From positions 38,130,001 through 38,194,000 of the forward strand of contig CM059440.1 in assembly GCA_030390025.1 (NCBI GenBank): a stretch of DNA of 64,000 nucleotides, read 5' to 3'. The position numbers were made by a program, and so were the translations under genes. Of the stretch, positions 26,790 to 55,429 are shown piece by piece (the first letter of the stretch is position 1; every line of letters begins with the position of its first letter). The notes under the pieces are model-generated. The model made no database searches. It was not told the DNA's origin and was given only the letters and a program-made list of their open reading frames with translations. Source of the stretch: Squalus acanthias (Eukaryota).

Positions 26790-26964
26790 GTACAGTCATT
26801 TAATAAAAACCGGCTTCGTTAAACCCGTTGACCACAGGTTTTTTTTTTCAGTCTTGTAGCCAAAATAAAACCAAAGATTTCACGCTGGATGTTGCATAAG
26901 TACAATGAAATATTTTTTTCAATCGTTTCTTTGTGAACTGCACTTTGTTGAAGCCCCTGTCTGT

Positions 26965-30221: not shown

Positions 30222-30804
30222 ATAGTATCTGGATTGTTCCATTTTTGTTTTGAAGGAGGGTGTGATGGGATACTCACGTCGGCTTCAATGCAGTTTTATT
30301 TTTTTATTTTTTGGCCATTTCTCTCTTCACCGTCCCCATGATCCCCTCCCCCAGTCTCCCTCCCCCAGCCCCCCCTCCCCCCCACCGCCCATTCTCAGGG
30401 AAAACCCTTTCACTGATTTGGTTTGCAAAACTGATAAATTCTGGCCATCCTTTGCTTGCCATTTTTTTGTTGAAATACCTCAAACTGGAAGTGAGTGGCG
30501 GAGAGGAGCTACCAACTCCAAGTTGCAAAGGGATTTGAATTAATTTGGATGCATCATTGATCATGGGCATTCTTTCAGAGTGTTGGCAGGAGGTATCGCT
30601 TCTGAGAGACTCCACTCTTATGGTTAATCTTGCTTTGAACTGAAGCTGAAATGCACAAAATAAAATGACTGTTTAAACCATGAAGCAACATAAATATTTT
30701 CTGACATAGCTATGTGAATTAATATGTGTAAAAAGCCATTACATTTTGCAAAGCATTGCCTTATAAAAGCATCTTGTTAGGGCAGGTTTGCAACTGCAAC
30801 AACG

Positions 30805-31313
30805 GGAACGGTAGCATAGTGGTTATGTTACTGGACTAGTAATCCAGAGGCCTGGACTAATCATCTGCGAGACATGTAGTTCAAATCCCACCACAGCAGC
30901 TGGGGAATTTAAATTCAGTTAATTAAATAAATTTGGAATAAAAAGCCAGTGCCAGTAATGATGACCATGAAACTATCAGATTGTCGTATAAAACCCATCT
31001 GGTTCACTAATGTCATTTAGGGAAGGAAATTTGGCATCCTTACCCAGTCTGGCCGATATGTGACTCCAGACCCACAGCAATGTGGTTGACTCTTAACTGC
31101 CCTCTGAAATGGCCTAGCAAGCCCCTCAGTTGTAAAAGACTGCTACGAAAAACGCTAACTCCCCAACAGCACTGGTGGGAGTACCTTCACCACACGGACT
31201 GCAGCGGTTCAAGAAGGTGGCTCACCACCACCTTTTTGAGGGCAATTAGGGATGGACAATAAATGTTGGCCTTGCCAGCGACGCCCACATCCCATGAACA
31301 AATAAATAAAAAA
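30805..31313 (+). mobile_element. tRNA-derived SINE sharing its 3' tail with the LINE at 52020-52720
   Basis: A-box and B-box head (ggtagcatagtggtta ... gttcaaatccc). The 3' part matches the LINE tail ending gcgacgcccacatcccatgaa. Confidence 0.8.
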
Positions 31314-31744
31314 GTTTAACTGCTACAAGCGGAGCCATTTCTCCACCGAACCTACTGGAATGCAGGTCCTGGAGGTGATGAGAATCACGAGTAACTTCCT
31401 CAGTGGTTCGGTTGGTTAAGGGTGTGAGACCAGGGAAAGGTCAGCTTTGACCCAGTCTCTGATAAGTCCGTCAAGATGGCAGTAGGGTTGCTAGAATTAG
31501 CCTCAGCACACTCTGGACTAGGGCAGTTAAATTGGACAGTGTTTCCATTCTTGGCTGCTGTCCAACCACCTGTGCTTGTGTGAGTGCGCGTGAACGGACT
31601 CTAGTTGAGGACATGATTAGGCTTGGCTGTGTTGCCACTGCAGTTTGAATAGCCCGCTGCAAAAGCTGACAGGTGGAAAAACAAGCACGTGGATGAAATA
31701 CCAGAAGGTTGCCGGGACCTCTGTTATGTGTGGTGGAAAATTTC

Positions 31745-33500
31745 AGAAACTGCAGACAAGACCAAAAATGGGAGAGTGGTTAACTGTGAAGTGATTTCAA
31801 GAGGAAATAGACAGATTGGTGCATTGTGCAGATAGATGTCAGATACAACTTAATGCAGAGAAATATGAGATGATATAGAGTGGGAGGATGAATAAGGACA
31901 GGAAATACATACACTAAATGGTAAAACCTTAAAAGTAGAGGAGCAGAGAGAGTTCAATCTTTAAATGTGGGCGGACAAGTTCCAAAGAAAACCTATGGAA
32001 TGCTCGGTTTGTAAATAGGGGCACAGAGGTCAAAAGCAAAGAGTTAATACTAAACTTCCACAAATCTTTGGTTAGGCAATATAAGAGAATATTGGGGTTG
32101 AATTTCCATGGGGGTTCTCCCCATCGCTTGCCCTAACTTCGAAAGATCTGTGGAAACCCTGTAAAGTTGGTGTCAATGCCGTTTGCCCCTTTCCCCCAGT
32201 TTTCTGCGGATCTTCCACTGAAGTTATGCCAGACGTTGGGGGGAATCCCCACCAAAATCAAACCCCGTTGTGTCCAGTTTTACTTTAGGAAGGATGTGAA
32301 AGCCAGGGATTATGAGAGGATGGGACAGGGTGGGTAGAAGCAGACTGTTTACTGTAGCTGATGGGTTTAGAACAAGGGGCCATGGATAGAAGGTTGAATG
32401 TAAGAGATTTCGAACAGAGGGCAGGAGAAACTTCTTCACGCAGAGAGGTGTGAGGTTGTGGAATTCAGTCCCAGGGCTAGTGGGTGAAACTATGTCAACA
32501 TTGAAGATTAGGTTGGAGAGGTGGGTGAAGGAAAAGGGGTTGAAGGGATATGGAAACAGGGAGGGTAAATGTGATTTGGACTATTTGCTCATATGGTGGG
32601 TAAACACCGACATGGACTGGTTGGGCTGAATGGCCTGTTTCTGTGTTGTAATTTCTATGGGTAGATTGCAGATGAAATTCTCTAAGATGTTACCAGGGAT
32701 GAGAAGAGGCTAGAGAAACTAGGGGTTCATTTCACAGCACAAAGAAGGTTAAAAGATTGAAGAGGGCTGTTCAAAATTAAAGAGGATAAATTGGGAAAAA
32801 GTATTTCCACTGGCAAGTGAATCGGCAACTAGAGGGCATAAATTTAAAATCTTCATCAAAAGAATGAAGGGAGATTTTTTTTAATACCAGAAACAGTAAT
32901 GGAAGTAAAATCCACAACAGCTTTTAAAACGGAACTGAATAAATATTTAAAATAAAAGATATTTTAACAGGTATGAGGAAAGGACAGGGGAATGGGACTA
33001 AGTGGACAGTCTCTATCAGAGAGCAGGACTGCACAGGCACGACAGACTGATAGGCCTCCTGCTGTGCTGTAAAATTCTGTTGTGCCATTAAGTATATTAA
33101 AAGTCTGCATGGATTATGAAAAGTATCTCCCTTCCCTGGCCAAAGAATGCTTAGATGTTGTTGGGCAATTTTCAAAGTTATGAAAGGTTTTGAGGGGGTA
33201 ACTAGTTGAAGGTTGATCCCACTGATTGGCGAATCGGTAACAAGGGTTACAGACTGAGGATTATCACTAGCGGACGAAAGGGGGAGGTTAGAAATTATTT
33301 CACGCAGAGAGTTAGTAGGACATGGAATGCTTTATCACAAGTGGCTATTGAGGTAGAGACTGCAAGATTATTTAAAAGGGAATTTGCTCCACATTTAAGA
33401 AGGAAGAACATAAAAGGATATGGAAAAAGGGCAGGAAAATGGGATTGGAGTAGAGCGCTCTAGTTCAGGACCGAGCACAGGCGCAGTGGGCTGAATGATG
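31745..33500 (+). mobile_element. Cluster of old CR1 3' fragments
   Basis: Several degenerate FQEEIDRL, RTRGH, FFTQR and WN segments plus CR1 3'UTRs. Confidence 0.7.
32094..32266. mobile_element. Short MITE inserted in CR1
   Basis: TIR GGGGTTGAATTT / AAAATCAAACCCC. Probable 3-bp TSD att/gtt. Splits the CR1 EYCVQF codons. Confidence 0.65.
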
Positions 33501-34316
33501 GCCGCCTTTTATACACATTCGCCTGCGAGGCTCGACATTTTGAGATGATGCCGAGCAGCATTTGTTGCCCAAGTGCCACAACTTAGCACAATATACATCC
33601 CAGAGGCTGCGAGAATGCCAGTTTCTGACTGTTGGGAAGAATTGTTTTCCGAGTTCTGGGAGGAGCCATCGCTGCAGCGACCCTGTGGAGGATCGCGCTC
33701 TGCATGAAGCGGCATATTAGTGCAAGTGGACACTTCCCCCAATAACCAATCCCGAATTTCCATTGAACGCTGCATTTACATCTGGTGAAACCATACGGAT
33801 TGCCGCAAATGCCGTTTTGTGATGAAACATTCATTTTATTTGGCTAATTGTCTCATAACTCTCCATTTAATTCTTGCAATTTAAGTCAGACAGTAATAAA
33901 GCCTAGTTGGATTTCGACTTGAATCTCCTCTGCACCCTATCCATAGAAGTTAGGACGTGGAAACTGGCCATTCGGCCCATCCAGTCCGTGTCGGCATTCA
34001 CCCTCCACACGAAAGATAGTTCTAACCACATTTACCCGCCCCGTTCCCATATCCCTTCATCTCCTTTTACTCCTGGTGGAATAAAGTGTTTAAAATGGTG
34101 AAAATGTAATTCGCTATCTAAGAATTGACTAAAATGGTATTTAATTCACTGGTGGTAAGCAACACGGTGGGGAGTTACTGCAAGTATCCAGTTCTGAAGT
34201 GTTTGTTTTTTAATCAGACGGAGCTAAAGTCACTGAGCATTCCAAAGGAGGGACCTCTTCCCCAAAACATCTTCCTACCCCTCCCACTAGTTGGTCGAGC
34301 TGAAATGAAACACTTA

Positions 34317-34574
34317 TGGCGCGAAATTCAGTTACGCTCCGTTTGGGGGCGGTAACCGAGTTAAGGCCGGGCATTTAGCGCTTGGGGTGGAAGTACCGCC
34401 CCGGCCGCTAAATTCGGCTTACCGCCCCGCACAGGAAGTGGAGCCCAATCTCGGGCGCTCCACTTCCTGGTGGGGTGGTAACCGAGGCGATGTCGGGGCG
34501 CGATCAGGCAGCGCACCGCGGGCGCTCCCCCGGAGGCGCTAACGGCAGGCACAAAGGAGCTGAATTTCTAGCCC
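34317..34574. mobile_element. Short GC-rich MITE related to 15814-16609
   Basis: TIR ggcgcgaaattcag / ctgaatttctagccc. Shares the ggcgctaacgg...gctgaattt end. Confidence 0.7.
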
Positions 34575-34759
34575 TAATGTGTGAGTTATAGAGAACATTA
34601 GTTCACATCATGTTACTGTGTGCTGTGCCATTTCATTGTCCCATTGCAAGGTGTCTAACTGTACCCGCATCTACTTGTGAAGCATAAAGTATCTGGGGCA
34701 TTGTAACCGACACCAGAGAAAAGCACATACATTGTATGGAGGGAGGTCAGGGCTAACAT

Positions 34760-34930
34760 TCACATGTGCACATGTATCTCTGTGTGTGTGCTTGTATCTG
34801 TGTGTATCTCTAGTATCTGTGTGTTTGTGCGTATCTCTGCGTACATGTGTGTCTGTGTGCATGTGTGTATCGGTGGATGCATGTGTATCTATGTTACATC
34901 TGTATGCATGTGCATATATGCGTGTGCACA
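34760..34930. repeat. Degenerate (TG)n simple repeat
   Basis: Visible TG/TGTA periodicity. Confidence 0.8.
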
Positions 34931-35672
34931 TCTTCTCCCTTCTTAGGCAGTCCCTCGGAACCGAGGATGACTTGCTTCCACACTAAAAATGAGTTCTCAG
35001 GTGACTGATGAGTCCAATGCGGGACCTACAGTCTCTGTCACAGGTGGGGCAGACGGCGGGTGGGTGGGGTGCTTGGGTTGACATGCGCGCCTTCCGCTGT
35101 TTGCGCTTGGCTTCCGCTTGCTCCCGGTGAAGAGACTCGAGGTGTTCGGTGCCTTCCCGGATGCTTCTCATTCACTTTGAGCGGTCTTGGGCCAGGGATT
35201 CCCAGATGCCAGTGGAGATGTTGCACTTTTTCAAGGAGGCTTTGATGGTGTCCTTGAAGCGTTTCCTTTGCCCACCTGGGGCTCTCCTGCCGTGTCGGAG
35301 TTCCGAGTAGAGCGCTTGTTTTGGGAGTCTCGTATCGGGCATGCAGACGATGTGACCCTTCCATCGGAGCTGATCGAGCGTGGTCAAAGCTTCGCTGCTG
35401 GGGATGTTGGCCTGAGCGAGAACACTGATGTTGGTGTGCCTATCCTGCCAATGGATTTGCAGGATCTTGCAGAGGCAGCGTTTGGTGGTACCTCTCCAGT
35501 GCTTTGAGGTGCCTGCTGTAAATGGTCCATGTCTCTGAGGCATACAGGAGGGCGGGTATCACTACTGCTCTGTAGACCATGAGCTTGGTGCCGGGTTTGA
35601 GGTCCTGGTCTTCAAACACTCTCTTCCTCAGGCGACCGAAGGCTGCACTGGCACACTGAAGGCGGTGTTGGA
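34931..35672 (-). mobile_element. RTE-clade LINE 3' fragment
   Basis: Encodes CLCKILQIHWQD, RLPKQALYSEL, GGQRKRFKD and a C-terminal CPTC...H motif. Confidence 0.92.
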
Positions 35673-37756
35673 CATGTATGTATGTTAGTACATGTGGCAG
35701 GGGTAAGAATTTTCATCTACTCAGCCAAGAAGGGATTTGGGGTTTCGGCTGCATTAAGTTTATAATATGGAATCCGTTTCAGAAGTGTTAATTCTAAAGG
35801 GTCCAGGGCTGGAGCTGTGGGGACAAAGAAGGCATAGTTATGTTAATGAGCTCTCTCAAAAGTTAATGAGCCAGCTATCGAGACTGTTATCCTGAACAAT
35901 CTGGGACAATAGGTGGGTTGTTCCCACATTGCGGGATGTCCAGTAGGCATTCACATATGAATGTGTTGTCAGTGACTGAATTCATGCATACACAGCGGGT
36001 CTGATCTGGACCAAATTAGGGGGCGGTAGTCAGTTTAATTGACAGCCCTATTAGCCAATCCCCAGACACAGAGCAGGTCAGAGGTCAAGCTGCTGACTTT
36101 CTGTCCAGCTCGGATACAAAGGGCAGAAGCACACGGCCTATCGCCCAGCTCTAGAACGTCGACTGAGAGAGACAGATGAGGGCCAAGCTTTCCTTAAAAT
36201 ATTGCTGACTAGATCCAGAGGAAACTCTGGATAGAAAAGTTAATTTAGGCAACTAACAGGGATAGTATGGCTCATTTTGTTTTCTATACTATCAGTTAGG
36301 TAGAAGTGAGGTGAGGTTTACTATAAATTTTATTTTGTGGGTTCACTTAACAATTGTAAATAAACCGAGTTGTTGATTTTTACATTCAGTCATGTCCTAC
36401 TAAAGTGTGAATCAGTCCACCTTTTCGAAGATTGCAGAATCACATGTGGAAGGACATAACAAGCTTGTTTACATCGCTACGGCCCCCTGGGTCAGACGGC
36501 ATTATGACTAGATATTGGGCTGTTCAAGGTAAACTCCTGATTGTAAGGGACATGGGATCCACTTATGGGAAACACTCGTGATGCTACGCCCAAGAGAATT
36601 TCTGGAGCAGACCAGATATATGTAGCATTGCATTTAACCTGTATGTGCATTTTTGTGTGTTTTTGTCTCTCTTGATGTGACTGTTATAGGTGCTTGTGCA
36701 GTTTTCTTCCCAATACAATTATTTTGCTTTGTGCGATTCGCAAAACCTTCTTAACATTTTAATGGGATGGATTTATTGAGCATTATTCCTTTTCTTTCCT
36801 AGTTGAAGCCGATTTATCATGTTAAAGTCCTGTAGAATTGCATCTGACTCTGATGATGTACCTGATGGCTAAACCAGTGGCGTTGACCTGACCTTCCTCT
36901 TAACTGGAATGTGAAGATATTCGTTCAGTGTGATTTCTAATCATCTGTCTGTTCCCCACATGTGTTCATCTTGTTACGTCATGTGTTACCGTGTTTCATT
37001 TGTCTTGTTACATTTGTGCATATTTTTTTCATCATCCATCGCCTCTGCTGCGACCTAGCCGCCCCCCCCCCCCTGCCGAGCTTCATCCTCTGGTCTGGAA
37101 GGTGGGGCACTCGAGCCCAATAGGAGGACCGTGTTTTGCTTTCCCCACCCCCCTCCCCCTCCCCCTCCGCCCCTGCCATCAATCTTGTGTGTTTGGGGCA
37201 GTATAGGCACAATTCAAATGGTGAGCTTGGTGCTGAGCTTCCTCTTAACTCTCATAGCGAGAGAGAAAGAGAGAGACAATTCCTCATTATTGTGGGACTC
37301 TCTATCCATCAGCAAATCTATGACTTTGCGCAACTTGGCCCATTGAAGGGAGTGACGGACAGGCCTGAGACTTGGACTCCTAACTCTTGGGTTTGGAGTG
37401 AAGTCTTCAGGCCAGTGATGTTTAGAGCAAAAGAGTATCTGACTGTGTTGACGCATGGTCCTAAATATTAAGGATGAGACACCTGCACGCTCATTGGTGT
37501 TTCTCAGTCCTCCATTTATATGTGTTCAAAATTATTGGTTAAGTGCAGCCTTGGGGGGAGGACATTTCTTTGTGGCATCCTCTCCCAGAAATCTGAGTGG
37601 AGTTGATGTGCTCCCAGCTCATGGTGTCATTACTTATGATTACTAACCAAGGGGTCACACGCAAAATATTTTTCTCAGGCGTTGGCCCTGATCCATGGTT
37701 TGAACACAGAAAAGACGGAACTGAGAGGTGGCAGTAAGTGTGACATGGTGGCGGTC

Positions 37757-37940
37757 ATCTTCAATTTCACCACTAGATGGTAGCCTGCCGGATTGGATCA
37801 CCCGCCCGTTGTAGAAGCTCCCTGATTTTCATCCCATCGATTTAATCAGAAATGGGATGAAAGCCGGGTAGGTGCTGTAATGGGCGCAAGGTCCACTCTG
37901 CCAGGTTACTGTCCAGAAGGCGACGTTGCAAATGACCCCC
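37757..37940. mobile_element. Degenerate palindromic MITE
   Basis: Imperfect fold-back centred near 37840 (tttcatcccat ... atgggatgaaa). Confidence 0.45.
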
Positions 37941-39656
37941 GCTCTCCCTCTGGGTTTTAGGATTGTGACAACTCAGTAGAATACCTTTCCCCTTTTAATT
38001 CAGGTCTGAGTTTCTTTCAACTTCAAGTAACCTTGAATCCCCTCCTCACGGTCGTTAACCCTATTACAACTTCCCAGTTTGAGTTTATTTTATTAATCTT
38101 TGCAGTGTTGGTGTTTTCTGTATCCCATAGTAGAAAAACGATCCCTTTCAACCAAATTTCATAGTCCCATCTCTTCAACTTCAATAGGCTACGCCACATC
38201 TGCTGGAATCAAGAAAAAACGAATCTATCATCAGATCCGCCGCCCACCTCCAGGTTAGGCTAAGCTCGGAGGCCCATCTTATCTCATTTTATGTTCCATT
38301 TGTTGTGTCATTTGTCTTAACGTGCTGGGAGTGGGCCTGTGCGGGGCTCTATCTGATTGTCCCCTTCAGCATGCTTGGATTTATGTATCTCTGCAGAGCC
38401 ATTAAAGCTGATTTTCACCTTCCTTGGGGAAAATTCCCTTGCATTCTTTTCCGACCTGTGCATGGTTAGAATTAGTTGTGCATCAAAGAAAATTAATTGC
38501 TTCCTATACTTAGAATATTCTCTTGCTAAACTGAAGCGCTTTCTCTACTCCAATAGCATATTATTACCTTGTGTAATAATTGTGCCACATACAGGAACTG
38601 TACTGTGGATCCCACATCATCCTGGTGGGAGTGGAATCAAAGGACTGAAATTGAGCAAGTGAAAAAATTAAGCAAGGATTTTCTATTTGCTCAGGTGCTT
38701 GCATGTCTGTTCCTCTCTATATACTTTGAACGGCTTTAAAGTTGTATCTACAGCGCACGGGCAATCCATTCCCAGAGCCAAATGGAGCTTACTTGTAAGT
38801 ATGATTACTTTTTTGATGAAATGTCTACATTCTTTTGGTCAAGAAGACCCGTTCTTCTGTGTTGAAAGAAAACAGCCATGAGGACATTTCTGTATCTCTT
38901 TGCCCCTCCCGCAAATGCGTTCTTCTTCCTGCTCAACCGCTTCTTTGTTTGCTGTGAAAAGTGGCGGTAAGTACGGTCGGGATTACTTCGCAGCCTCTGT
39001 TGGTGGTTAACAGGAAGACCAATTTCTCCAAGCCAAGATGGATGGTGTCTGTTTTAACAGCGGAGAGAGCAGTTGCACTCTTGTTAAGCATCCTGTCTCC
39101 TAGTCCAGCCCAAACTGATGTGTCCAGAGTTGCCCCAACACTGACTGACCTGGAGGAACATCATGTTGTGTTACTGTGGATCCATGTCCTTTGGGATGGC
39201 CACCTGCATTTCACCTGGGATTCTGAGCAGCTGGCACTGAGAGGAATCCCATTGTACAGTCGTACAGTCCCATCGGTGATCTCGTACACCAATGAAGTTC
39301 GTGACCATCTGGAATACAGTATTCCACTAGGTTCATTCTACGATGCCAGTAAAATGAAGAAAGATAAAAGGGTCATTCAGAGTCTTTCCAAATATTACTG
39401 AGAGAAAAACCTAGCTGGAAATTGCACTAATGTAAAGGATTATTACATAATGGCTCATGACATACCATTACCAGAATGGACTACTCTTTGGCATGACCGG
39501 TTACAGTTAAGAGCCCGAAACATTTTAAGTTCAGTCTGAAACTCTGGTGAAATGCTCTTTATCCAAAATTTTGGTTAGATCTGTTATGTTGAATCAACCA
39601 GCCCCCAAATCTGTAAAGGTTCTTTGGATCTAATCACCTTGTTTTCTATATTGCAG

Positions 39657-39776
39657 AGCATGAAATGAACCCAACGTACTGGAGGAACCAAGCCCAGGAA
39701 ACACTGAAACGGGCTCTCAACTTACAACACCTCAACACTGGTGTCGCAAAAAATGTTATTCTTTTCCTCGGGGATG
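39657..39776 (+). CDS. alpl: alpl coding exon (ALPL exon 3 equivalent)
   Basis: ttgcag acceptor, GTGCGT donor, 120 nt. Encodes EHEMNPTYWRNQAQETLKRALNLQHLNTGVAKNVILFLGDG, including the metal-ligand FLGDG motif. Confidence 0.97.
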
Positions 39777-40258
39777 GTGCGTGTTCAGATATTCCAAGAT
39801 TACTAAATTCTGTTGAGTCACCCATTGTTGACCTTAACTAAGTTAGAATTTCCTATAAAGCCTGGTTTCCGACCTGCGTTGGTAGCCGTGAACGACACGG
39901 TGGCCTAGAGCGGTGGAACTCTAGCCTGGTAGGACGTGGGTTGGTGCCGATAATGCTCCACAAAGCGAATGCCTCAGCTCAGCAGTGTCATTCTGATGAG
40001 TTGGACATGGTGGACCTTCCTCACTAATGGATGGGGAGAGAAAAATTCGGCGAGAAGTCTCCCCCAACCCTACCACCTGTCCCACTCCTGCACTTCTAGC
40101 AGTTATTGGCATCAATTATTGATCATGGGCGAGCAAGAAACGAGACCAACAAATGCATATATTATCAAAAAGATGTGGAGATGCCGGTGTTGGACTGGGG
40201 TGGACAAATGTGAGAAGTCGCACAACACCAGGTTATAGTCCAACAGTTTTATTTGAAA

Positions 40259-40295
40259 TCACAAGCTTTCGGAGCGCTGCTCCTTCGTCAGGTGA
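40259..40295 (-). ncRNA. Minimal hammerhead ribozyme motif
   Basis: Reverse complement of the + strand motif at 40451-40487. Confidence 0.75.
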
Positions 40296-40450
40296 AGTGA
40301 AGAAATGTATATCGGCACAGCATATATAGTCAGAGAACACTGCCAGACGAGTTCAGTTAATCTTTCTAACTGCCCTTTAGAAAGATTAACTGTAGTCGTC
40401 TGGCAGTGTTCTCTGACTATATATGCTGTGCCGATATACATTTCTTCACT

Positions 40451-40487
40451 TCACCTGACGAAGGAGCAGCGCTCCGAAAGCTTGTGA
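40451..40487 (+). ncRNA. Minimal hammerhead ribozyme motif, sense to alpl pre-mRNA
   Basis: UCAC-CUGACGA-A-GGAGC-AGC-GCUCC-GAAA-GC-UU-GUGA. Confidence 0.75.
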
Positions 40488-40779
40488 TTTCAAATAAAAC
40501 TGTTGGACTATAACCTGGTGTTGTGCGACTTCTCACATTTATCAAAAAGAGACAGCTAACGCTGTTGCATTTCATTCAGCACTTCCATAACTGCCTTATT
40601 TAATTGGAAATGACCAGTGCTGCACCTGACCTTTTATATAAATTGGGATCTCGAATGTAGCATGTGCTAACTGATCATTCTGTTAGATTGTATTAAGTTA
40701 ATTCTTTGCGCTCGTCAATGGGCTGAGGAGATCAGTCTCCAGTATATAATTAGTATAGTTGTTATGCTGAACAACAGCC

Positions 40780-41097
40780 CGACAACCCTTCGTGACCTCT
40801 GCGCTCCTCCAATTCAGGCCTCTTGTGCAACCTCGATTTTAATCGCTCCACCATTGGTGGCCGTGCCTTCAGCTGCCGAGGCCCTAAGCTCAGGAATTCC
40901 TTCCCTAAACCTCTCCGCCTCTCTCTCCTCCTTTCAGTCGCTCCTTAAAACCTACCTCTTTGGCCATATTTTAGTCACCTGTCCTAATATCTCTTTATGT
41001 GGCTTGGTGTCAATTTTTGTCCAGTTACGCTCCTGTGAAGCACCTTGGGATGTTTTTACTATGTTAAAGGAGCTATATAAATGCAAGTTGTTGTTGT
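40780..41097 (+). mobile_element. L2 LINE 3' end
   Basis: Same family as 1284-1540. Confidence 0.8.
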
Positions 41098-41674
41098 GCT
41101 TGTAGATGTAGCAGTTGTTTTGCAACACGGTGACTAGCTGGTTCTGAGTTAACCATTTGATATAGAGGAACAAAGTGAGACTGGTGCTGCACATCAAGAT
41201 GGGTGTTTGATTTCATCACGGTGGTCTTGTCCCGATGTCTAGATTTCTGGACAATTCCTCCACAGGCAACTAGTCTCTTCAGTGATTGTTTCTTTTATCA
41301 TTCCCCGCTCCGTGCTTTTCTCTTTGCTTTCCTGGACTTCTGAAGGTGTTGAATGCTGCTGGAGCATGGCCCCGAGTGGCCAGTGCACATGTGTGAGCAT
41401 TGACGGTGAGCGTTGGGCAGGCTAGTCCACTGTAGGGTTTCAGCGGATCCCGATCCTGGGTTAACATTTGCAGAAGTGCACTACGGTGGGTGGTTGGGGG
41501 GTGTGAAGCTCATTGGATGGTGATCAGAAGTGGGAGCTCTGCTGTTGTTTTCCTTTCCAGCCCTAACCCAGGGCTACTGAGGTCAATTATATTGTGCCAA
41601 TTGGTGTCCTGCCTGAGATCAGCCAACTCAACACATTTAATCTGGGTAACTTCCTGACCCATGTGGGTCAGCAC

Positions 41675-41818
41675 CAATGTTCCCTTTAAGTTTTCTTTGG
41701 GTGCGCGGCCCATTCAAAATACCGCGCATGCATGGTTTTTTTCTATTTAAAAGCCGGTGAGCCGGCTGCGCGGGAGCTGCAGTGCGCTGCGTGGCTGCGC
41801 AACTTCCAGGGAACATTA
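41675..41818. mobile_element. hAT-type MITE (144 bp)
   Basis: TIR CAATGTTCCCT / AGGGAACATTA. Perfect 8-bp TSD GTCAGCAC at 41667-41674 and 41819-41826. Confidence 0.85.
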
Positions 41819-41949
41819 GTCAGCACCGCACCACACTGGGCAGGCATATTCACTGACTGAGATAACAGGGAGGTTGACTCTCATGCATTGATCACACGCA
41901 CATATACCTGTGCTGCTGGACACAGCCCGAGTACACTGACTACACGTAG

Positions 41950-42761
41950 GGGCGCGATCTTGCCGGCCCTGGGGAGGCGGGTTTGGAGGTGGGACTGCCG
42001 GGAAAATGGCAGAATCTGGGGGCGGGTGCCCATCCCGCCCCCAACCTGCTTCCGTGCCATCTTCCCAGGAGGCGGGTAGCCAACCCGTGCCGGGTCCCAT
42101 CTCCTGGAGGCGGGAAGGGGATTACAGCCACTTAACTGCCTGTTAACAGGTAGTTAACAGGCAGGTAAGAGGATTATCCCCATTTTGCCCACACAAGTGC
42201 GGGCTTCCCGAAGGCTGCAAACCCCGCCAAGGTCAGCGAGGCGAGCCGTAGGTCTGCGGGGGTCAGAGGGGTGCAAACGTGCGCTGTGAAGGTGAGTGAT
42301 GGGTGCAAGTGTGGAGAGGTGAGTATGTGAGGTAAGTGGAAAGTGTTAGAAAATGTTTACTTACCTTTGTTTCTTTCTGCAGCCTTCAACCGTTGGGGAT
42401 GCGAAGAGTCTCGCATCTCACCGGCAGAGATGACGGAATGGCTGCTGCATTCTCCAATGCAACAACCATCTAATTTCTGCTCACAAAAGAGGTTTGATGA
42501 GTCTTGAATACAAGGACTCATCAAACAACAGAGAATGTCAGTGTTTGACAGCTTCACAGAGCTGTCAAACGATGACAATTCAGATGAAACGTCATACGCT
42601 GATGTTCTCTGTCACCGGCTTCTCCTTAATTGGCCTGCTAAGCCCGCTGGATCTATCAAGGGAAAATAGCGTGGGTTGGCCAGAAGTCGATGGCGGCGGG
42701 ACTAAAACCCGACAAGTGGGAGTCCCGCCTCCAAAAGCTCCCCATTGGCAAAATCCAGCCC
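41950..42761. mobile_element. Harbinger-like MITE (partner of 29397-30221)
   Basis: TIR gggcgcgatcttgcc / ggcaaaatccagccc. Confidence 0.7.
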
Positions 42762-43749
42762 AAAGTATACTACTTTGGAACTAGGCTGACTTCTGGTGGA
42801 TTCCAAGGCTTCTCTACACTATAGTGCTTCTGAATTTATTCTGAAATGAACCTAGCCCTGTGGTATCTACTTGGAGAGTTGGCCCCTGGGTGGGCAATGA
42901 CAAAACATTTTATTAGCAGAATCTGAGTTTATTCCAACATGAAAGAAACCCGATAGTAGGTTGCCGTGGCCTGTAGTGCTCATTTGCCATCTTGATGTGC
43001 AGTACCAGTCTCACTTTGTTCCATGTAGGTCTCAATAATCCAAATATATCAAATGTAAAGCTCGTCCCAACTCTTTGTAAGTGTATTTTATCTTCACATT
43101 GCACCTTCTCCGTGAACCATTTCCAGACTCGTTCTTCTGGATGAATGATAGAGTCGTGGGAAATGATTGGTGGCAGCTACTTCCAAAACATCCAAGGGGT
43201 GCCTCTGCAAATTTGCACCTACTGTAGATATCTTCACGCGCTCGGTGGTGTCGGTCGCTGCCTGAAGAGATCTGAGCGCCTGCTTTTTCATGGACGTTGT
43301 CACCCAATCCCTTATATCTGCTTGTGAGGTTGCGGGACTCAGGGGTGTAACAGTGAAACTCCCTTGTGTTCTGGATCGGATTTCCGTGTCTCACCCAGTC
43401 TCCGAGGGCAGACTGGGTTAACACCGGGTGAGGTGAAGTTTGCTTTAAATTGTAAGCTGCTTTATTCCACAGTAGGTAAAACGCATAACAATGAGATTGA
43501 GCACGGTTAGCTCATTGGTACAGCTTTTGTTTGCATACTCTTACAAAAATAGTTCTGGCCCACTCCAATGGGTCACCTAACTCAACTTAAGATCACAATC
43601 TCTCCACCCTGTCCTGCTGCCCAGGGCAATACTAATTGTAGCTAAAGTTAAGATACAGAGACAGAAAGCTAGATCTGGACAAACATTGAGAGAAAGGAAG
43701 CGCTCCATGCTGAGGTGCTGACTGCCCGAGCATCTTTGTTCTTTTTCAG

Positions 43750-43865
43750 GTATGGGAATACCCACAGTGACTGCTGCTCGAATTCTGAAAGGCCAGCTGG
43801 AAAACAAAAGTGGAGAGGAAGGTTTCTTGGAAATGGATAAGTTCCCGCACGTGGCTCTTTCAAAG
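43750..43865 (+). CDS. alpl: alpl coding exon (exon 4 equivalent)
   Basis: ttttcag acceptor, GTAGTT donor, 116 nt. Encodes [39 protein letters not shown]. Confidence 0.97.
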
Positions 43866-44303
43866 GTAGTTCATTATCTATAGCAAGTTTGTGTTGATCT
43901 TCTGCCCAATTATTGCCAAGAACTTTCAGTCTTCAAGGCCACCTGCCACACTTGAAATTTATCTCTCATGGTCCTTGGAGGACTACACTATTGGTAACAC
44001 ATGTCATAAATTTCTAAGTTATTAAAAAAAATGCTTTCCCCTTCATAAAGTGGAAAAAAAGTCTTCATTCTCCCTTGGGTGAGTCAAGATAAACTCTTGG
44101 AAAGGAAATAACCCCTGCCTTAGCAGATGCCTTAACAACAAGATTGTTTCCTCCCTGACTGCCCTGTGGAATTCTGGCATAAAGTGCAGTGGAACTGACT
44201 GTAAATGGGTTATGTAATTGTTTCTGGTGAAATAACTAACACCCAGAGTGACGGGAATGCACATTTTTAATCTTATTTTTATTCTTTGGATGAACTTAAG
44301 TTG

Positions 44304-44829
44304 CTCCACTCCCACTCTGACCTCTCCGTCCTCGGCCTCTTACACTGTTCCGGTGAAGCTCAACATAAGCTCGAGGAACAGCACCTCATCTTTCGATTAG
44401 GCACTTTACAGCCTTCTGGACTCAACGTCGAGTTCAACAATTTCAGACCATAACCTCTGCCCCTATCTTTTTTTCATTTTTTTTTTCTCTCTCTCACATG
44501 GCAGCTGTCGATCATTCTGCCATCGCCATTTACACTTCATCTAGAGCCATCTTTTGTTTCTTAACTTGTCCCATTACCATCTCCTTTTGCCTTGCACCAT
44601 CATCCCTTTTGTCTCTTAATCTCTCCTGCCTTCCACCCTATCACAGACCTTCCCTTTTGTTCTTTCCTCCCCTCCCCCCTTTCCCTGCCCCTACACTTGC
44701 TTAAAAACCTGTTCCATCTCCAGCTTTTTCCAGTTCTGACGCAGGGTCACTGACCTGAAACGTTAATTCTGTTTCTCTCTCCACAGATGCTGCCTGACCT
44801 GCTGAGTATTTCCAGCATTTTCTGTTTTT
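44304..44829 (+). mobile_element. Penelope-like element 3' fragment (GIY-YIG C-terminus plus 3'UTR; hammerhead 44732-44768 with core change)
   Basis: Encodes HSDLSVLGLLHCSGEAQHKLEEQHLIFRLGTLQPSGLNVEFNNFRP*. TSD ACTTAAGTTG at 44294-44303 and 44830-44839. Confidence 0.88.
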
Positions 44830-44953
44830 ACTTAAGTTGTGACCTTGTTTTGTTGCCTGTATTTATTTATTGTGAAAGTGGCCCTTCAAGAGATGGAAGG
44901 ACACGTTGCAATGTTTTGACCTTGATGCCAGCTCTCTCTCTTTCATCCACCAG

Positions 44954-45128
44954 ACCTATAACACCAATGCCCAGGTACCCGACAGCGCTGGTACAGCAAC
45001 GGCCTACCTGTGTGGCGTTAAGGCAAATGAAGGCACCGTGGGCGTGAGTGCGACTTCAGTACGTAGGCAGTGCAATACCACCTTCGGCAATGAAGTGACC
45101 TCCATTCTAAAATGGGCAGAAGATGCTG
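44954..45128 (+). CDS. alpl: alpl coding exon (exon 5 equivalent, catalytic serine)
   Basis: caccag acceptor, GTTAGT donor, 175 nt. Encodes [61 protein letters not shown] is the active-site motif; KANEGT is TNAP-type. Confidence 0.98.
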
Positions 45129-45479
45129 GTTAGTGTCGCGAATATTGCACACAGCCTCAGTACAAGAATGCTGACCCTTTTTTGCATTGCTTTCTGCATC
45201 ACTCAATGGGAGCGATTTTAGTCTTGTTCATCAGGGGCCTGTGTGGAGATTCAAGGAGCAGTTGTTAGCCTGTTGTAATAGGATGGAGTGACACTCACTT
45301 AGACTGTTTTATTTCACAACAACTACTTACTGGTCTGACAATTGAAGTGGTGGAGAGAAATGGTCAAGTCTCTCAGTTAAGATTTAAGGAGCACTTTTCC
45401 CTAGACCCCCACCCCCAGAAATCAGCCCCCTTCCCCAATCTAGTAAATTGAAAGAATTAATTGAACTCTGGTTCACATG

Positions 45480-45993
45480 CTCTCCTGGCTGGCTTCCCAC
45501 TTTCCACCCTCCGTAACCTTGACTCATCCTGCCCATATCCTAACTCGCACCAAGTACTGTTCACCCATCGCCCCCTGACCTACATTGGTTCCCAGACCGA
45601 CAACACCTCCGATTTAAAATTCTGATCCTTCTTTTCAAATCCCTCCGTGGCCACGCCCTCCCAATCTCTGTAACCTACACCAACCCGGCAACCCTCAAAA
45701 TGTCTGCACTCCTCCAGGTCTGGCCTCTTTCACCCCACCATTGGCGGCTGTGTCTTCAGCTGCCTGGGCTCAAAGCACCGAAATTCCCTCCCGGAACCTT
45801 TCCGCCTCGCTACCTCCCTCTCCTCTTTTAAGACGCTCCTTCAATCCTATCTCTTTGACCAAGCTTTTGGCCACCTGTCCTAATGTCTCCTTCTTTGGTA
45901 CGGTGCCAATTTATGTCCAATAACACTCCTGTGAAGCGCCTTGGGACGTTTTACTACGTTAAAGGCGCTATATAAATGCAAGTTGTTGTTGTT
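45480..45993 (+). mobile_element. L2 LINE 3' fragment
   Basis: C-rich ORF2 C-terminal region plus the standard tail. Confidence 0.8.
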
Positions 45994-46627
45994 AAACTTG
46001 CTATTAACACCAGGCCCTAAAGGCACAGGGATTCAGAAGCTGGTTCCTCGGGCGCTACATCTGTGCAGATGCATTGCCTCATTGCCTTTTCTCACTGTAG
46101 TTTTTTCCGCATTTAACATGCACCGTCAGAAGTTGGAAATGGGCTGTAAGCAAATTTATTTCATATAAAAACAGACCTGCAAAGTGAATGCTACTTATAA
46201 CATGCACAATAGTGCGTTAGAAAGTGGGTGGCCGCTCTGCTACGGTATGGTGCATTCAAGTATCACAACCGCACAACCAGCAGAAATCAGAGCTGGGGAA
46301 ATGTGCGTTCGGCCGTGATTCTGCTGCACAGTCGACCATGTGCCAAAACATTACCAGGTCAAATAGCTGATGATGAGACTGATGGGGAGACGTGACAGTT
46401 GAGAAGTTTAAAAACATGTTTGTTCGAAAAGAGGGAGCCATATTTTTTGAGCAATTTTCTTTAATGATACAGAACCAGAAAAAAAACGAAGTAAAAAAGG
46501 CACCAAAAGAATCAATAGATTTGACAAATGGTTTCAGCAGCCATTGATGTGGTGCTAGTTTAAAAATCTAGCTCAAGAGTGTACAGAAGCTCCCCGTAGA
46601 CCAACGATTATCAACACTTTCAGATTA

Positions 46628-46790
46628 ACTCCCTCCCTAACAGCACTGTGGGAGTACCTTCACCACACGGACTGCAGCGGTTCAAGAAGGTGGCTCACCA
46701 CCACCTTCTCAAAGGGCAACTAGGGATGGGCAATAAATGCCAGCCTTGCCAGTGACGGCCACATCCCATAAAAACGAATAAAAAAAAATC
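46628..46790 (+). mobile_element. 3' tip of the second CR1-group LINE/SINE family
   Basis: Matches 52570-52715. Confidence 0.8.
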
Positions 46791-47039
46791 TATCCCTTGA
46801 TTTTATTAAGCAATGGATCAAGTTAACACATAGAGTGGAGCTCTCGTGGCATTGCTCCTGGTTATGATATTTGGATGCTAGCTTGGCCTGTGTCTTCAAG
46901 ACAATGTCACATTAATTGTAGCTACTTATAAATGGCTGAGGTCAATCAGAGGGCACTGCTTGTAAATTTCAGGTTACAGGTCAGTGATTTGACTTTTGTT
47001 TTTGTTAAGATTGCTTTGGACCTTAATATAAAGGAAAAT

Positions 47040-47430
47040 AAGACTTGCATTTATATAGCACCTAACATGACCTCAGGTCATCCCAAAGCGCTTTAGAGAC
47101 AATGGAATACTTTTGAAGTATAGTCACTGTTGTAATGGAGGACACGCAGTGAGATACAAGGCCAGATAATTTCTTTTAGTGATGTTGGCTGAGGGATAAA
47201 TATTGGTCAGGGCACTGGGGAGAACTCCCCTGCCAATCTTCGAATAGTGCCATGGATATGAGAGGGTTGATAGAGCCTTGGTTTAACGGCACCTCTGACA
47301 GCGCAGCACTCCCTCAATACTGCACTGACATGTCAGCCTAGATTATGTGCTCAAGTCTCTGGTGTGGGACTTGAACCCACAAACCTTCTGATTCAGAGCC
47401 GAGAATGCTGCCACTGAGCCACGGCAGGCA
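47040..47430 (-). mobile_element. Deu-domain SINE
   Basis: Tail, core and tRNA head on the minus strand. Confidence 0.8.
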
Positions 47431-47969
47431 CCGAAAAGGACATGAAACTGAGGTAGTGAAAAAGCAGGAGAAAAATACAGACAAAAACTTCCAAAAAGAG
47501 GATGAGGTGGAAAGGAAGAAATGGGCCAGGAAATGGGGGAGATGGTTAAGTTCTGAAGGTGCTACTGTCAATGTTCAGATGTTATCCCTCGTGGTGGGAT
47601 CAGGAGCTAGAAGATGATCAAACAATTGCTGAGATGGAACGTTTGTGCTGAATTGAGTTCCCGAGGCTTGAACTGAGCATTAATCAATAGGCCACTGTCA
47701 TGCGTTGGGATTTTTCTTAGCCATTTTTCCACAGAAATTATTTGGAAAGAGTTACTTTTATGTGTTGGGTGTTTAAAACAAAGTGTATTCATAGAAGTTT
47801 TGGAAAAGGCACTGAGATGAAAGCTGGTTAAAATATTAATAACCTAGGCATTGATGTTGATTCCCCAAAGACTCTAAATGATAAGCAATTCATTAGCCTG
47901 TCTCAGTAATCGATAAACACCTTGGCACTGGGAAGTCGCTGGTCCCAGACATTTGGCAGCGCTGGTCTT

Positions 47970-48266
47970 TTTTTTATTCGTTTATGGGATGTGGGTGTCA
48001 CTGGCGAGGCCAGCATTTATTGCCCATCCCTAATTGCCCTCGAGAAGGTGGTGGTGAGCCGCCTTCTCGAATCGCTGCAGTCCATGTGGTGAAGGTACTC
48101 CCATAGTGCTGTTAGGGAGGGAGTTCCAGGATTTTGACCCAGTGACGATGAAGGATCAGCGATATACTTCTAAGTCAGGATGGTGTGTGACTTGATGGGG
48201 AACTTGGAGGTGGTGGTGTTCCCATGCGCCTGCTGCCCTTGTCCTTCTAGGTGGAAGAGGTCGCGG
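47970..48266 (-). mobile_element. 3' fragment of the second CR1-group LINE family
   Basis: Reverse complement of about 52430-52720. Confidence 0.85.
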
Positions 48267-48921
48267 ATAGGCCTTACCTTGTGGCTATGAACACAGGATA
48301 ATTAAAACAGACAGAGATATCGGCAATCAGTCAGGTTTTTCTAACAGAAAGGTGAAAGGGCAAGCATTGCCCGGACTCACAAGCTTAGAATACAGGAGGA
48401 TGGTTGGTTGGAGTAATATTGTTTGAGACGTAGAATAACCCACTGATGTGGTGAAATGTCTCACGTTCATTACTTTGTATTATTGCATGAGGACAAGTTG
48501 TCCTGATTGATTTAACTGCGTTGATCATAACTGTTGCTCTGTTTGCTCACTTCCTGTTAAATAAAGCAGCTTAACAATTTGTACCCTGCCTCACATTGCC
48601 AGATGTTTTCTTGGTTCACCTTGAAGAAGATTGGAGAGGCATATGAGGACATGTCACAAGGGTGTACTATTGTTACACCCTTGCGTTACGCTAATGTATA
48701 AGCAGATATTGGAGAGTGTGAGTCTACTCTAGCACGTAAAGGCAACGCAATCCACTTATAGGAGTGACTGATGCCACTGAACTCAAGAAGGTGTCTATAG
48801 CAGGCCCGAGTTGGCAATACCTATCCCGGGGAGTCCCTATTGCTCCTGTTTTAATTATTTGTTGTATTGTTGCTGTGATTCCTGCAGTTGGTTACTTGGA
48901 TGTTGCGAGTCTTGGTCATCG

Positions 48922-49202
48922 AGGGATGATTCATTTTGTGGTACATTTTGAAAGCTCCATTTGCTCAATTGTGGTAAATTTGTGGCGTCTTAATCTGCCG
49001 TATTGGACTTTCCCAATTTGACCAATGGTTTTGATGAGTCATCCTAATTTCTAAGGTCTGAGTTGAAAGAGCATTCAAAGACTTGAGGAAGACTTGCATT
49101 CATATAGCGCCTTTCACAACCTAAGGACGTCCCAAAGCGCTTTACAGCCAATGATGTACTTTTTGAAGTGTAATCGCTGTAGTAATGTAGGAACCATTAT
49201 CA
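48922..49202 (+). repeat. Source arm of a 281-bp inverted duplication
   Basis: Reverse complement of 50160-50440. Confidence 0.95.
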
Positions 49203-50029
49203 TCTATTTTTTTTTTAAACTCTCAACATTTGATGTGACGTGGAGACAGACATCTCTTTGTGTTTAATATGTGATGTGCTGATCGAGGACTGATGTTGGA
49301 TGAGCTCTGTCTCCCTTTCACTTCCTTTGCTTTCCTTTGTGGCCAGCCAATGGTTATCTGCCTTGTAGGTGGGGAAGAGTCAAGAGTTGAGGCCTGTTTT
49401 GTGAGGAGAGATTTTTAAACTGTGCCCGCACCTTTGGGAACTGTGAATTAACTGGGAGGCGGGAGGTGGAGGAGAAATCGTCATAACCCAGCTCAGAAAG
49501 GAGGATTTTTTTTTGTGTGTGAGTAGTAATTTGCCATTTGAAAAAAATGAACAGTTAGATTTGTTAAACGTAGGAGAATTTAAGAGCAGTTTTTACCGTG
49601 TATTTACTGGTTGCCATGGTGATAACTGGGTTGTCCTGATCTGAGATTTAACTATTTTCATAAGATTTGCTCAATCAACTAGAACCACTGCTGGATTTAA
49701 TTTTAGGAAAACTGCACATGAGTTCAGTCATTATTTTTATTTGCAGTTGTCACTTGCTCACTCAGTTCAATGGAGTGGAAATCGTGCAGGTTCTATAGAG
49801 TTGGGTGGCCTGCTCTGCCAGATTACCACCCAGAGTGTGAAGACAAAAATTTACCTCATTCACAAGTTCATTCATTATTTTCAAGACAGACTGGATTTTG
49901 CCTTTTTTGTTTTCTGCTGCACTGCTTTTTGGGCAGTATTGCTGGGTATGAAATCCATCTGAGAATTATTAGATCACATAGGAAATCCACAATTTCCTCT
50001 CTTGGAGTGCGGGCAGTAAATGTGTTGGC

Positions 50030-50898: not shown

Positions 50899-51099
50899 AG
50901 GAGAACATACATGGACCTTGTGTCAGACAGTATGTTCTTGAAAGTTCCAAAATATAGTCAATCCTTTTGGTGGTTTGAATCGACTGATGACCGCCGATTC
51001 CTGCCGCTCTGGCTATTCTTTCCCAGTTAGCAGCTCGGAGGTCCCTGTTTTCCACTTCTTTCAACAGCAGCTTTTTAGAGCCACAAAAAGCCATACCGA

Positions 51100-55405: not shown

Positions 55406-55429
55406 TCATTTACATGGTTTTCTGCCATT

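What the first reader, a model, noticed from the sequence alone, without database searches (positions are those of the whole stretch)
40162..40550. Palindromic Penelope-type element carrying a hammerhead ribozyme on each strand (family A, four copies)
Seen: four related insertions at 9053-9269, 15738-16859, 28470-28669 and 40174-40538. Each has its own 12-16 bp TSD and is a fold-back in which one arm has about 30-40 extra terminal nt (...GTCCACCCCAGTCCAACACCGGCATCTCCACATCA on the minus strand; the gap is larger in copy 2). In three copies both arms contain CAC-CUGAnGA-A-GGAGC-loop-GCUCC-GAAA-GC-UH-GUG: the hammerhead core, a 5-bp helix II, a 3-4 bp helix I, and helix III reduced to the palindrome AGCU. 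Established: Penelope-like elements carry such minimal type I hammerheads, thought to act as dimers, and often insert with an inverted partial terminal repeat. Inference: these are non-coding ribozyme-bearing insertions. The variable arm lengths suggest each hairpin was made during integration rather than copied from a fixed MITE master. No ORF here identifies the autonomous parent.
Basis: partly seen in the sequence, partly recalled or inferred. Interest (0 to 1): 0.8.

Follow-up and report, generated by a model that had tools for sequence, protein, structure and literature searches.

The report
Penelope retrotransposon end-fragments inserted as hairpins
These four short mirror-image DNA insertions near a shark gene are leftover ends of a known kind of jumping gene that carries a tiny self-cutting RNA motif; the motif is probably switched off here, but the junctions record how these elements insert.

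Summary
There are four head-to-head insertions with exact 12-16 bp target duplications and a 34-64 nt tail on one arm. Seven of 8 arms carry an intact minimal hammerhead core. The window is a shark alpl locus.

The arms read as the pseudo-LTR of a Penelope-like element (PLE): TATA, initiator, hammerhead, stem-loop, tail, then ATG. A sister family in the window has the same layout, covaries in helices I-III, and runs into a GIY-YIG endonuclease C-terminus. No ORF was found for family A itself.

Inverted pLTR plus tail plus TSD, and opposite-strand minimal hammerheads, are already published, so this is a new member of a known kind.

Two corrections. Copy 2 is long because of a nested 796-bp insertion. 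The ribozymes are predicted silent in read-through RNA, because the antisense arm is made first (46-71 kcal/mol penalty). All 8 arms span the cut site, so their templates were uncut or religated.

Likely mechanism: both target nicks prime at two RNA start sites, and one cDNA snaps back. Shark genomes could test this open question.

The parts
40162..40173 (+). A4 left TSD (12 bp)
   Evidence: exact repeat with 40539-40550
40174..40369 (-). A4 tailed arm (pLTR sense on minus strand; offsets -78 to +117 from hammerhead C3)
   Evidence: (I3)
40174..40207 (-). A4 tail, 34 nt, absent from the other arm
40188..40245 (-). 9-bp stem pairing offsets +46..54 with tail +95..103; its loop holds the tail-less end
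   Evidence: shuffle p 0.004; family B has a 9-bp stem at +48..56/+106..114, p 0.0006
40259..40295 (-). A4 minimal type I hammerhead, minus strand (C3 40291, H17 40263)
40296..40328 (-). TATATA at -37 and TCACT initiator-like motif at -9 (putative core promoter, inferred)
   Evidence: same motif pair and ~20-bp spacing described for an Adineta pLTR (PMC3846280)
40370..40376 (.). A4 axis, 7-nt loop
40377..40538 (+). A4 tail-less arm (offsets -78 to +83), with TATATA 40418-23 and TCACT 40446-50
40451..40487 (+). A4 minimal type I hammerhead, plus strand (C3 40455, H17 40483)
40539..40550 (+). A4 right TSD
9040..9282 (.). A1 with 13-bp TSDs; arms -13..+120 (minus) and -3..+77 (plus), 1-nt filler at 9187; both hammerheads intact
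15722..16875 (.). A2 with 16-bp TSDs; arms -53..+123 and -53..+59; 33-nt centre (16714-16746) of stuttered repeats; tailed end reads into an ATG
15814..16609 (.). nested 796-bp GC-rich MITE-like insertion in the tailed arm of A2 (later event)
28456..28683 (.). A3 with 14-bp TSDs; axis at 28587 inside the CUGA box (1-nt loop); core intact on the minus arm only
   Evidence: (I17)
17844..18056 (.). comparator B1: palindromic copy of a sister family, 15-bp TSD, tail on the right arm; neither arm contains the other
44304..44833 (+). comparator B4: non-palindromic copy; PLE GIY-YIG endonuclease C-terminus (44304-44453), 3' UTR, decayed hammerhead
26729..56668 (+). host context: shark alpl coding exons near 26729, 38187, 39653, 43749, 44954, 56490; A3 and A4 are intronic, A1 and A2 lie upstream of the start codon

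Best explanation
Family A copies are dead-on-arrival 3' ends (pseudo-LTRs) of an endonuclease-positive Penelope-like retrotransposon, each built into a head-to-head hairpin during its own integration. Steps: (1) the parent's GIY-YIG endonuclease makes staggered nicks 12-16 bp apart in AT-rich DNA [TSDs shown, enzyme inferred]; (2) both 3' ends prime reverse transcription on uncleaved element RNA, one at a distal start 3' of a stem-loop (tailed arm) and one at a proximal start in its loop (tail-less arm), often over 2-3 nt of microhomology [ends shown, priming inferred from the anole PLE]; (3) one cDNA stops early, snaps back and copies itself, which sets the axis; (4) that sense-polarity copy anneals to the second cDNA, and host repair fills in the TSD [inferred]. 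The hammerhead is a passenger of the pLTR. In any read-through transcript, such as alpl pre-mRNA, its antisense arm is made first, so it stays unfolded and the RNA forms an 80-160 bp duplex, a likely ADAR substrate. My odds by step: PLE pLTR origin 0.93; hairpin made per insertion 0.8; ribozyme silent in read-through RNA 0.85; dual priming plus snap-back 0.5.
For: Architecture matches published PLE ends: inverted pLTR, 30-40 nt tail on one side, TSD. The motif fits the published minimal-hammerhead consensus. Across 8 A and B sequences, 8 of 11 pairs change on both sides and 98.9% of cells pair, against 21-40% when slid (in effect two independent sequences). Family B leads into a peptide matching 94 proteins. 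19 of 96 collected hits carry a Y-I/V-G-x-T motif and 16 a CxxC before it; 5 of 19 distinct hits scanned give GIY-YIG, all below the gathering score. Axes differ between copies but are coupled within a copy (-13/-3, -53/-53, 0/+2, -78/-78), which favours snap-back. Outer ends cluster (+117..123; +77..83 in 3 of 4), which favours fixed start sites. In B1 the tail-less arm runs ~55 nt further 5' than the tailed arm, so a second template is needed. The A3 arms differ at +44, a site that varies between copies. The anole PLE cuts and extends both strands, has two RT starts that bound the tail, and uses uncleaved RNA (PMC11167929). All 8 A arms span the scissile bond. Forcing the hammerhead costs 46-71 kcal/mol in whole-insertion RNA against 0.7-0.9 in a single arm; P(helix II) is ~1e-18 at all 6 prefix lengths tested for A4. 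A2 and A4 sources differ at 7/45 sites upstream against 1/63 in and after the hammerhead (Fisher p 0.009), suggesting constraint in the parents.
Against: No family A ORF or non-palindromic A copy lies in the window, so the parent link is by analogy with B, which shares no extended sequence with A. The 1-nt loop of A3 cannot be a direct snap-back and needs later trimming or end-joining. A2's tail-less end (+59) is ~20 nt short of the others. A4's only two mismatches lie near the axis, not at the outer ends. In the anole, both strands used the same start sites, which does not explain why 5 of 5 palindromes here have exactly one tail. Shared alleles between arms could also come from gene conversion; only A2 is clearly informative (A3 right arm vs A4: 0/82 differences; A3 left vs right: 3/82). 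Microhomology lengths (2,2,2,2,3,0,0,3; p~0.006) were read by eye, from 8 of 10 junctions. Folding is equilibrium modelling only.
Confidence: 0.6

Rival explanations
1. Single-template self-priming: one cDNA, primed at the tailed end, snaps back and copies itself, and the endonuclease then resolves the intermediate at the tail boundary.
For: Coupled axes in 4 of 4 A copies. Stuttered self-copies at the A2 centre. Self-priming and EN-mediated resolution are the published readings. The arms of A2 share 8 alleles against A4.
Against: B1 cannot be made from one cDNA without a later deletion. A3 has a 1-nt loop and discordant arms at +44. Microhomology also occurs at tail-less ends (3 of 5). The anole enzyme primes on both strands.
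Confidence: 0.25
2. A non-autonomous palindromic master (retro-MITE) moves as a unit, and the axes vary because unstable palindromes suffer central deletions after insertion.
For: 4 of 4 A copies are palindromic and short, against 1 of 4 B copies. The 1-nt loop in A3 looks like a revised palindrome.
Against: The A2 and A4 centres hold different added sequence, not nested deletions of one master. A2 and A4 arms carry copy-specific alleles on both sides. A hairpin RNA is a poor RT template (knowledge, no call).
Confidence: 0.08
3. DNA transposon (foldback or MITE) with a chance hammerhead-like motif.
For: Long inverted arms flanked by TSDs; no Rfam hammerhead hit.
Against: TSD lengths are 12, 13, 14 and 16; the ends are asymmetric; the motif was absent from 200 shuffles; A and B covary; B is linked to a GIY-YIG domain.
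Confidence: 0.02
4. The copies are active ribozyme units: internal TATA/initiator motifs fire outward in A2 and A4, giving short RNAs whose hammerheads fold and cleave as protein-assisted trans dimers.
For: TATATA at -37 in 3 of 4 long arms and TCACT at -9 in 4 of 4. Single-arm RNA folds helix II at P 0.83-0.99 and helix I at 0.32-0.93. The core is intact in 7 of 8 arms.
Against: No transcript data. The one active-type dimer I evaluated (-18.3 kcal/mol) is less stable than two monomers (-23.2) and than a non-catalytic dimer (-30.5). Published minimal hammerheads are inactive as monomers and weak as dimers. The intact cores are explained by young age.
Confidence: 0.05

Closest known systems
EN+ Penelope-like elements with inverted pLTR and tail (Drosophila virilis Penelope; Adineta Pen2a_Av; PMC3846280, PMC8557442, PMC2377424)
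   Same: Head-to-head inverted pLTR, 30-40 nt tail on one side, TSD, palindrome at the inverted junction; TATATATA plus TCACT ~20 bp apart in the Adineta pLTR; tail adjoining the ORF start.
   Different: Here the unit is reduced to the two pLTR ends (200-365 bp without the nested insert) with no ORF. TSDs are 12-16 bp against 8-10 bp in Adineta.
Minimal type I hammerheads of metazoan PLEs (Cervera and De la Pena 2014, PMC4209133)
   Same: CUGANGAH, G10.1-C11.1, palindromic 15.2-16.2, short helix I, U-rich and AU-rich flanks. GC palindromes are listed for turtle, rotifers and Schistosoma. Opposite-strand pairs 100-700 bp apart were reported in S. mansoni.
   Different: No cartilaginous fish is in the Fig. 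S3 list I read. The pairs here are under 20 to ~165 bp apart in near-perfect palindromes.
Poseidon_Ac (PAc) of the green anole (PMC11167929)
   Same: Two RT start sites bounding the tail, a stem-loop downstream of the hammerhead, AT-rich targets, uncleaved template.
   Different: The PAc ORF starts inside the hammerhead and priming was reported as non-homologous. Here the first candidate ATG follows the tail, and 2-3 nt microhomology is seen at 6 of 8 junctions.
Non-LTR retrozymes (bioRxiv 10.64898/2026.07.22.740005)
   Same: Non-coding, pLTR-related, carry type I hammerheads, reported in one chondrichthyan genome.
   Different: Retrozymes are head-to-tail arrays that allow cis dimers. These are head-to-head, with one sense hammerhead per strand.
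Neptune-type PLEs (for family B only)
   Same: Hits to the B4 peptide show a Cys-rich linker before the YIG motif, like the Neptune rows seen (P0123, P0129).
   Different: No tree was built, and the clade of family A is unknown.

Membership tests
EN+ Penelope-like element | single ORF with telomerase-like RT and GIY-YIG endonuclease | tested here: inconclusive
   None linked to family A in the window (325 ORFs >=60 aa vs Pfam; custom HMM). The Pfam scan also missed B4's real fragment, so it is insensitive. An EN C-terminus was found for sister family B. The rest of the genome was not available.
EN+ Penelope-like element | pLTR carrying a hammerhead near the 3' end | tested here: met
EN+ Penelope-like element | 30-40 nt tail at one end only | tested here: met
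   34, 35 and 43 nt; 64 nt in A2, whose tail-less arm is shorter
EN+ Penelope-like element | inverted, variably 5'-truncated copy joined head-to-head | tested here: met
   4 of 4 copies, four different axes
EN+ Penelope-like element | TSD of variable length in AT-rich DNA | tested here: met
   12-16 bp; 71% AT over 70 TSD bases (four A copies and B1) vs 54% in the window
Minimal type I hammerhead (PLE type) | CUGANGAH / GAAA / NUH core, G10.1-C11.1, palindromic helix III, helices I and II | tested here: met
   7 of 8 arms; 0 in 200 shuffles; consensus read
Minimal type I hammerhead (PLE type) | covariation in helices I and II | tested here: inconclusive
   native helices invariant within family A; 8 of 11 pairs covary between A and B, but these are two independent sequences
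Minimal type I hammerhead (PLE type) | self-cleavage at NUH as a dimer | not testable with these tools
   needs in vitro transcription; folding predicts no activity in full-hairpin RNA
Rfam hammerhead families | covariance-model match | tested here: not met
   0 of 18 listed matches at E<=10; likely because helix III is absent (inference)
Non-LTR retrozyme | head-to-tail tandem units, each with a hammerhead | tested here: not met
   all four copies are head-to-head single pairs
MITE / DDE DNA transposon | fixed-length TSD and symmetric terminal inverted repeats | tested here: not met
   TSD 12/13/14/16; one end 34-64 nt longer
microRNA precursor | Rfam gathering score | tested here: not met
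   58.7 vs 184, 56.2 vs 140, 36 vs 84 bits

The most novel reading that the evidence does not exclude
In PLE integration the minimal hammerhead acts less as a nuclease than as an RNA dimerisation signal. Its palindromic helix III pairs two pLTR RNAs inside a dimeric RT-endonuclease particle, so that each target nick is primed from its own template at a different start site. These ORF-less shark hairpins are the minimal footprint of that two-template reaction. It fits four things: the palindrome is kept while its sequence changes (AGCU in A, ACGU in B); the templates were uncut in 8 of 8 arms; neither B1 arm contains the other, and the A3 arms are discordant; and the anole protein is a predicted dimer indifferent to catalytic ribozyme mutations. 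I did not find this model in the passages or listings read.
Probability: 0.15. Interest if true: 0.75.

Novelty: new member of a known kind. Interest (0 to 1): 0.33.

Why it matters
How PLEs make their inverted ends and tail is still open: the 2024 in vitro paper leaves the later steps unvalidated, and hammerhead function in these elements is called unclear. Short, young, TSD-bounded hairpins give one clean record of both priming sites and the central join per event. Five in 57 kb suggests very many per shark genome, enough to separate one-template from two-template models by counting. Secondarily, such copies put long near-perfect duplexes into introns (here alpl). Penelope is reported as a massively edited repeat in lizard, and a palindromic repeat in frog. 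The ribozymes themselves are probably not active host elements.

Tried and rejected
Rfam at E<=10: no hammerhead; the miRNA hits are hairpin artefacts below threshold.

Parent ORF for family A: no GIY-YIG among 325 stop-to-stop ORFs >=60 aa. ORFs starting at 52.9-54.1 kb or beyond 56.8 kb were left out as simple repeat or satellite. The three RVT_1 hits look like CR1/L2-type LINE pieces (my reading, recalled, no call). A profile built from 93 of the 96 B4-peptide hits (3 over 420 aa dropped) found only B4 (5e-32) and B2 (1.4e-6). A weak tblastn hit at 24667-24765 (E 0.008) was not supported on inspection. No frame is open across the whole A4 tailed arm.

GTDB scan with a 30-nt hammerhead pattern: 0 exact matches, as expected for a shark repeat.

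A full-text search for 14-nt pieces gave 1 unrelated paper. A 9-nt piece in the supplement of PMC8557442 gave 2 hits that do not look like hammerheads.

The pairwise table misaligned the A2 left arm by keeping the nested duplication. I discarded it and recomputed.

BLAST of A against B arms gave only short matches, E>=0.69. TSD searches: none for B2, a possible 9-bp one for B3, only 7-bp repeats for B4.

Lunse et al. (dimer cleavage) is not held and is known to me only through a review. I considered matching our end distances to the PAc start site (111-118 nt into its ORF) and dropped it: the text does not say which of the two sites this is, and its supplementary figures gave no text.

Unchecked: metagenome and viral collections, any eukaryotic genome, and RNA data.

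Full report
Observation. BLAST of the copy-4 arm finds these four loci and nothing else below E 0.1. Each has an exact target duplication: 13, 16, 14 and 12 bp for A1-A4. Repeats of 12 bp or more flanked 0.7% of 3000 random pseudo-insertions. With offsets counted from hammerhead C3, the arms span A1 -13..+120 and -3..+77, A2 -53..+123 and -53..+59, A3 0..+118 and +2..+83, and A4 -78..+117 and -78..+83. The tails are therefore 43, 64, 35 and 34 nt. The arms within a copy differ at 2/81, 5/113, 3/82 and 2/162 sites, several by CpG decay, so the copies are real and young.

Host. An exon at 56.5 kb is 95% identical to alkaline phosphatase of Scyliorhinus and Heptranchias. Six alpl coding exons map on the plus strand from 26729 to 56668. 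A3 and A4 are intronic; A1 and A2 lie upstream of the start codon, and I could not tell whether they are transcribed.

The ribozyme motif. Rfam gave no hammerhead among 18 listed matches at E<=10. A descriptor written after the consensus in Fig. S3 of PMC4209133 gave 7 hits in 56.7 kb, all in family A, and none in 200 shuffles. Both arms of A1, A2 and A4 match. A3's axis falls inside the CUGA box, leaving the core intact on the minus strand only. Within A the native helices do not vary; changes fall at N7, the helix II loop and H17. A looser scan also found two intact hammerheads of a second family, B, with the same C3-to-H17 spacing. On an 8-row A+B alignment, 8 of 11 pairs change on both sides and 98.9% of cells pair, against 21-40% for slid controls. 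This is in effect two independent sequences, so it supports the fold but is not a population-level test.

Anatomy of the arm. In element sense it reads: TATATA at -37 (3 of 4 long arms), TCACT at -9 (4 of 4), hammerhead, AATAAA, a 9-bp stem whose 3' strand lies in the tail, and in A1 and A2 an ATG at the very end. In A1 the ATG overlaps the TSD. Family B has a 9-bp stem of unrelated sequence in the same place (shuffle p 0.004 for A and 0.0006 for B). The same TATA/initiator pair, ~20 bp apart, was described in a rotifer pLTR together with an inverted pLTR, a 31-bp tail and a TSD (PMC3846280). The D. virilis 34-bp repeat sits at the start of the ORF (PMC2377424). That the motifs are a promoter and the ATG an ORF start is inference. 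Where both arms of a copy agree, A2 and A4 differ at 7/45 sites upstream and 1/63 in or after the hammerhead (p 0.009), suggesting selection on that part in the source elements.

Parent. No PLE ORF is linked to family A in the window. Family B supplies an indirect link. B2 and B4 align over 474 nt from a coding stretch to the hammerhead. The B4 peptide matches 7 proteins in one search and 94 in another. Of 96 collected hits, 19 carry a Y-I/V-G-x-T motif and 16 a CxxC before it. Pfam GIY-YIG scores appear in 5 of 19 distinct hits scanned, all below the gathering score; several hits are chimeric gene models. One (P0123) shows RT motifs, a Cys-rich linker and the endonuclease, as in Neptune-type PLEs (compare). 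A and B share layout but no extended sequence, so membership of A rests on architecture.

Mechanism. Variable TSDs and asymmetric ends exclude a DDE transposon (knowledge). Four different axes, different centre fillers and 8 alleles shared by both A2 arms against A4 argue against one master, though gene conversion could give the last. Two patterns need explaining: outer ends cluster, and the two inner ends of a copy lie within 0-10 nt of each other. In vitro, the anole PLE cuts and extends both strands, starts at two RNA sites that bound the tail, and uses uncleaved RNA (PMC11167929). That explains the outer ends. Coupled inner ends and the stuttered A2 centre point to snap-back, the older self-priming reading. 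B1 needs a second template, because its tail-less arm reaches ~55 nt further 5' than its tailed arm. A3's arms differ at +44, where copies are polymorphic. I therefore favour dual priming with snap-back of one cDNA and annealing to the other (0.5). Against it: A3's 1-nt loop, A2's short end, A4's mismatches near the axis, and the unexplained one-tail rule in 5 of 5 palindromes. Junction overlaps read by eye at 8 of 10 ends total 14 nt (p~0.006), a weak hint of microhomology that the anole work did not report.

Are the ribozymes active? All 8 arms cross the scissile bond, so the templates were uncut there or religated. In head-to-head geometry each strand makes the antisense arm first. Forcing the hammerhead costs 46-71 kcal/mol across 7 whole-insertion folds (A2 folded without its outer part), against 0.7-0.9 in single arms. 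Helix II probability is ~1e-18 at all 6 prefix lengths tested for A4. Each strand has one sense copy, so no cis dimer exists. The single active-type trans dimer evaluated was 4.9 kcal/mol worse than two monomers. Published minimal hammerheads are inactive alone and weak as dimers. Only transcription from the internal motifs of A2 or A4 would free the motif; there are no data on that.

Comparison and novelty. Inverted pLTR, tail and TSD are standard PLE features. Opposite-strand minimal hammerheads 100-700 bp apart were noted in 2014. Tandem retrozymes are a different arrangement. I found no description of shark ORF-less palindromic pLTR insertions or of a two-template model in nine searches. 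The library lacks most subscription papers, including the main PLE reviews and Lunse et al., and Repbase or Dfam may already hold this family.

What I saw of each paper: PMC11167929 parts 1-2 of 4, supplement search empty; PMC4209133 parts 1-2 of 4 and supplement file 2 parts 1-2 of 3, file 1 not searchable; bioRxiv 2026.07.22.740005 parts 1-3 of 5, supplements not seen (they may list shark families); PMC3846280 passages and Discussion; PMC8557442 passages and a supplement search; PMC6765202, PMC2377424, PMC5625713 and PMC8969392 passages; all others search listings only.

Verdict. Real, correctly identified, a new member of a known kind. A specialist would recognise it quickly. Its value is as a clean, countable record of an unresolved integration mechanism. 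Interest 0.33.

Noticed in passing
window 17844-18056, 19960-20427, 24122-24374, 44304-44833: Second PLE family (B): one palindromic copy with a 15-bp TSD and three plain 5'-truncated copies. B4 keeps ~50 codons of the endonuclease C-terminus (Neptune-like); the hammerheads are intact in B1 and B2 and decayed in B3 and B4.
   Followed up: yes
window 15814-16609; related termini at 8271-8320 and 34534-34575: 796-bp 68%-GC element with short inverted ends, internal palindromes and a 3-4 bp duplication, nested in A2; resembles a Harbinger-type MITE (label recalled, no call).
   Followed up: partly
window 26729-56668 (+): Shark alpl gene, six coding exons mapped, including the short exon at 38187-38252 present in some elasmobranch isoforms only; later exons were not found in the window.
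   Followed up: partly
window ~56730-64000: Array of a 28-bp unit, over 200 copies, strongly C/T-skewed, starting ~60 bp after an alpl exon.
   Followed up: no
window 48916-49205 and 50157-50446: 290-nt inverted repeat, 97% complementary, 951 nt apart; the right arm abuts LINE-like sequence. No hammerhead hit in my scans; origin unexplained.
   Followed up: no
window 47981-48266 and 52430-52715: 286-nt inverted pair (92%), 4.2 kb apart, probably two copies of a dispersed repeat in one alpl intron.
   Followed up: no
window 9053-40538: All four A copies have the tail on the left, and all five palindromes (A and B) have exactly one tail; too few to judge.
   Followed up: partly
window 40351-40353 and 40393-40395: The only two mismatches between A4's arms lie 2 nt apart near the axis, while 160 other sites are identical; possibly one event.
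   Followed up: no
window 2199-2753, 12887-13270, 13250-14718, 9388-9747, 34986-35558: Broken LINE fragments (RVT_1, APE-type endonuclease, C-terminal C2H2 finger).
   Followed up: no
window 52924-54082: C-rich low-complexity and minisatellite tract giving long spurious ORFs.
   Followed up: no
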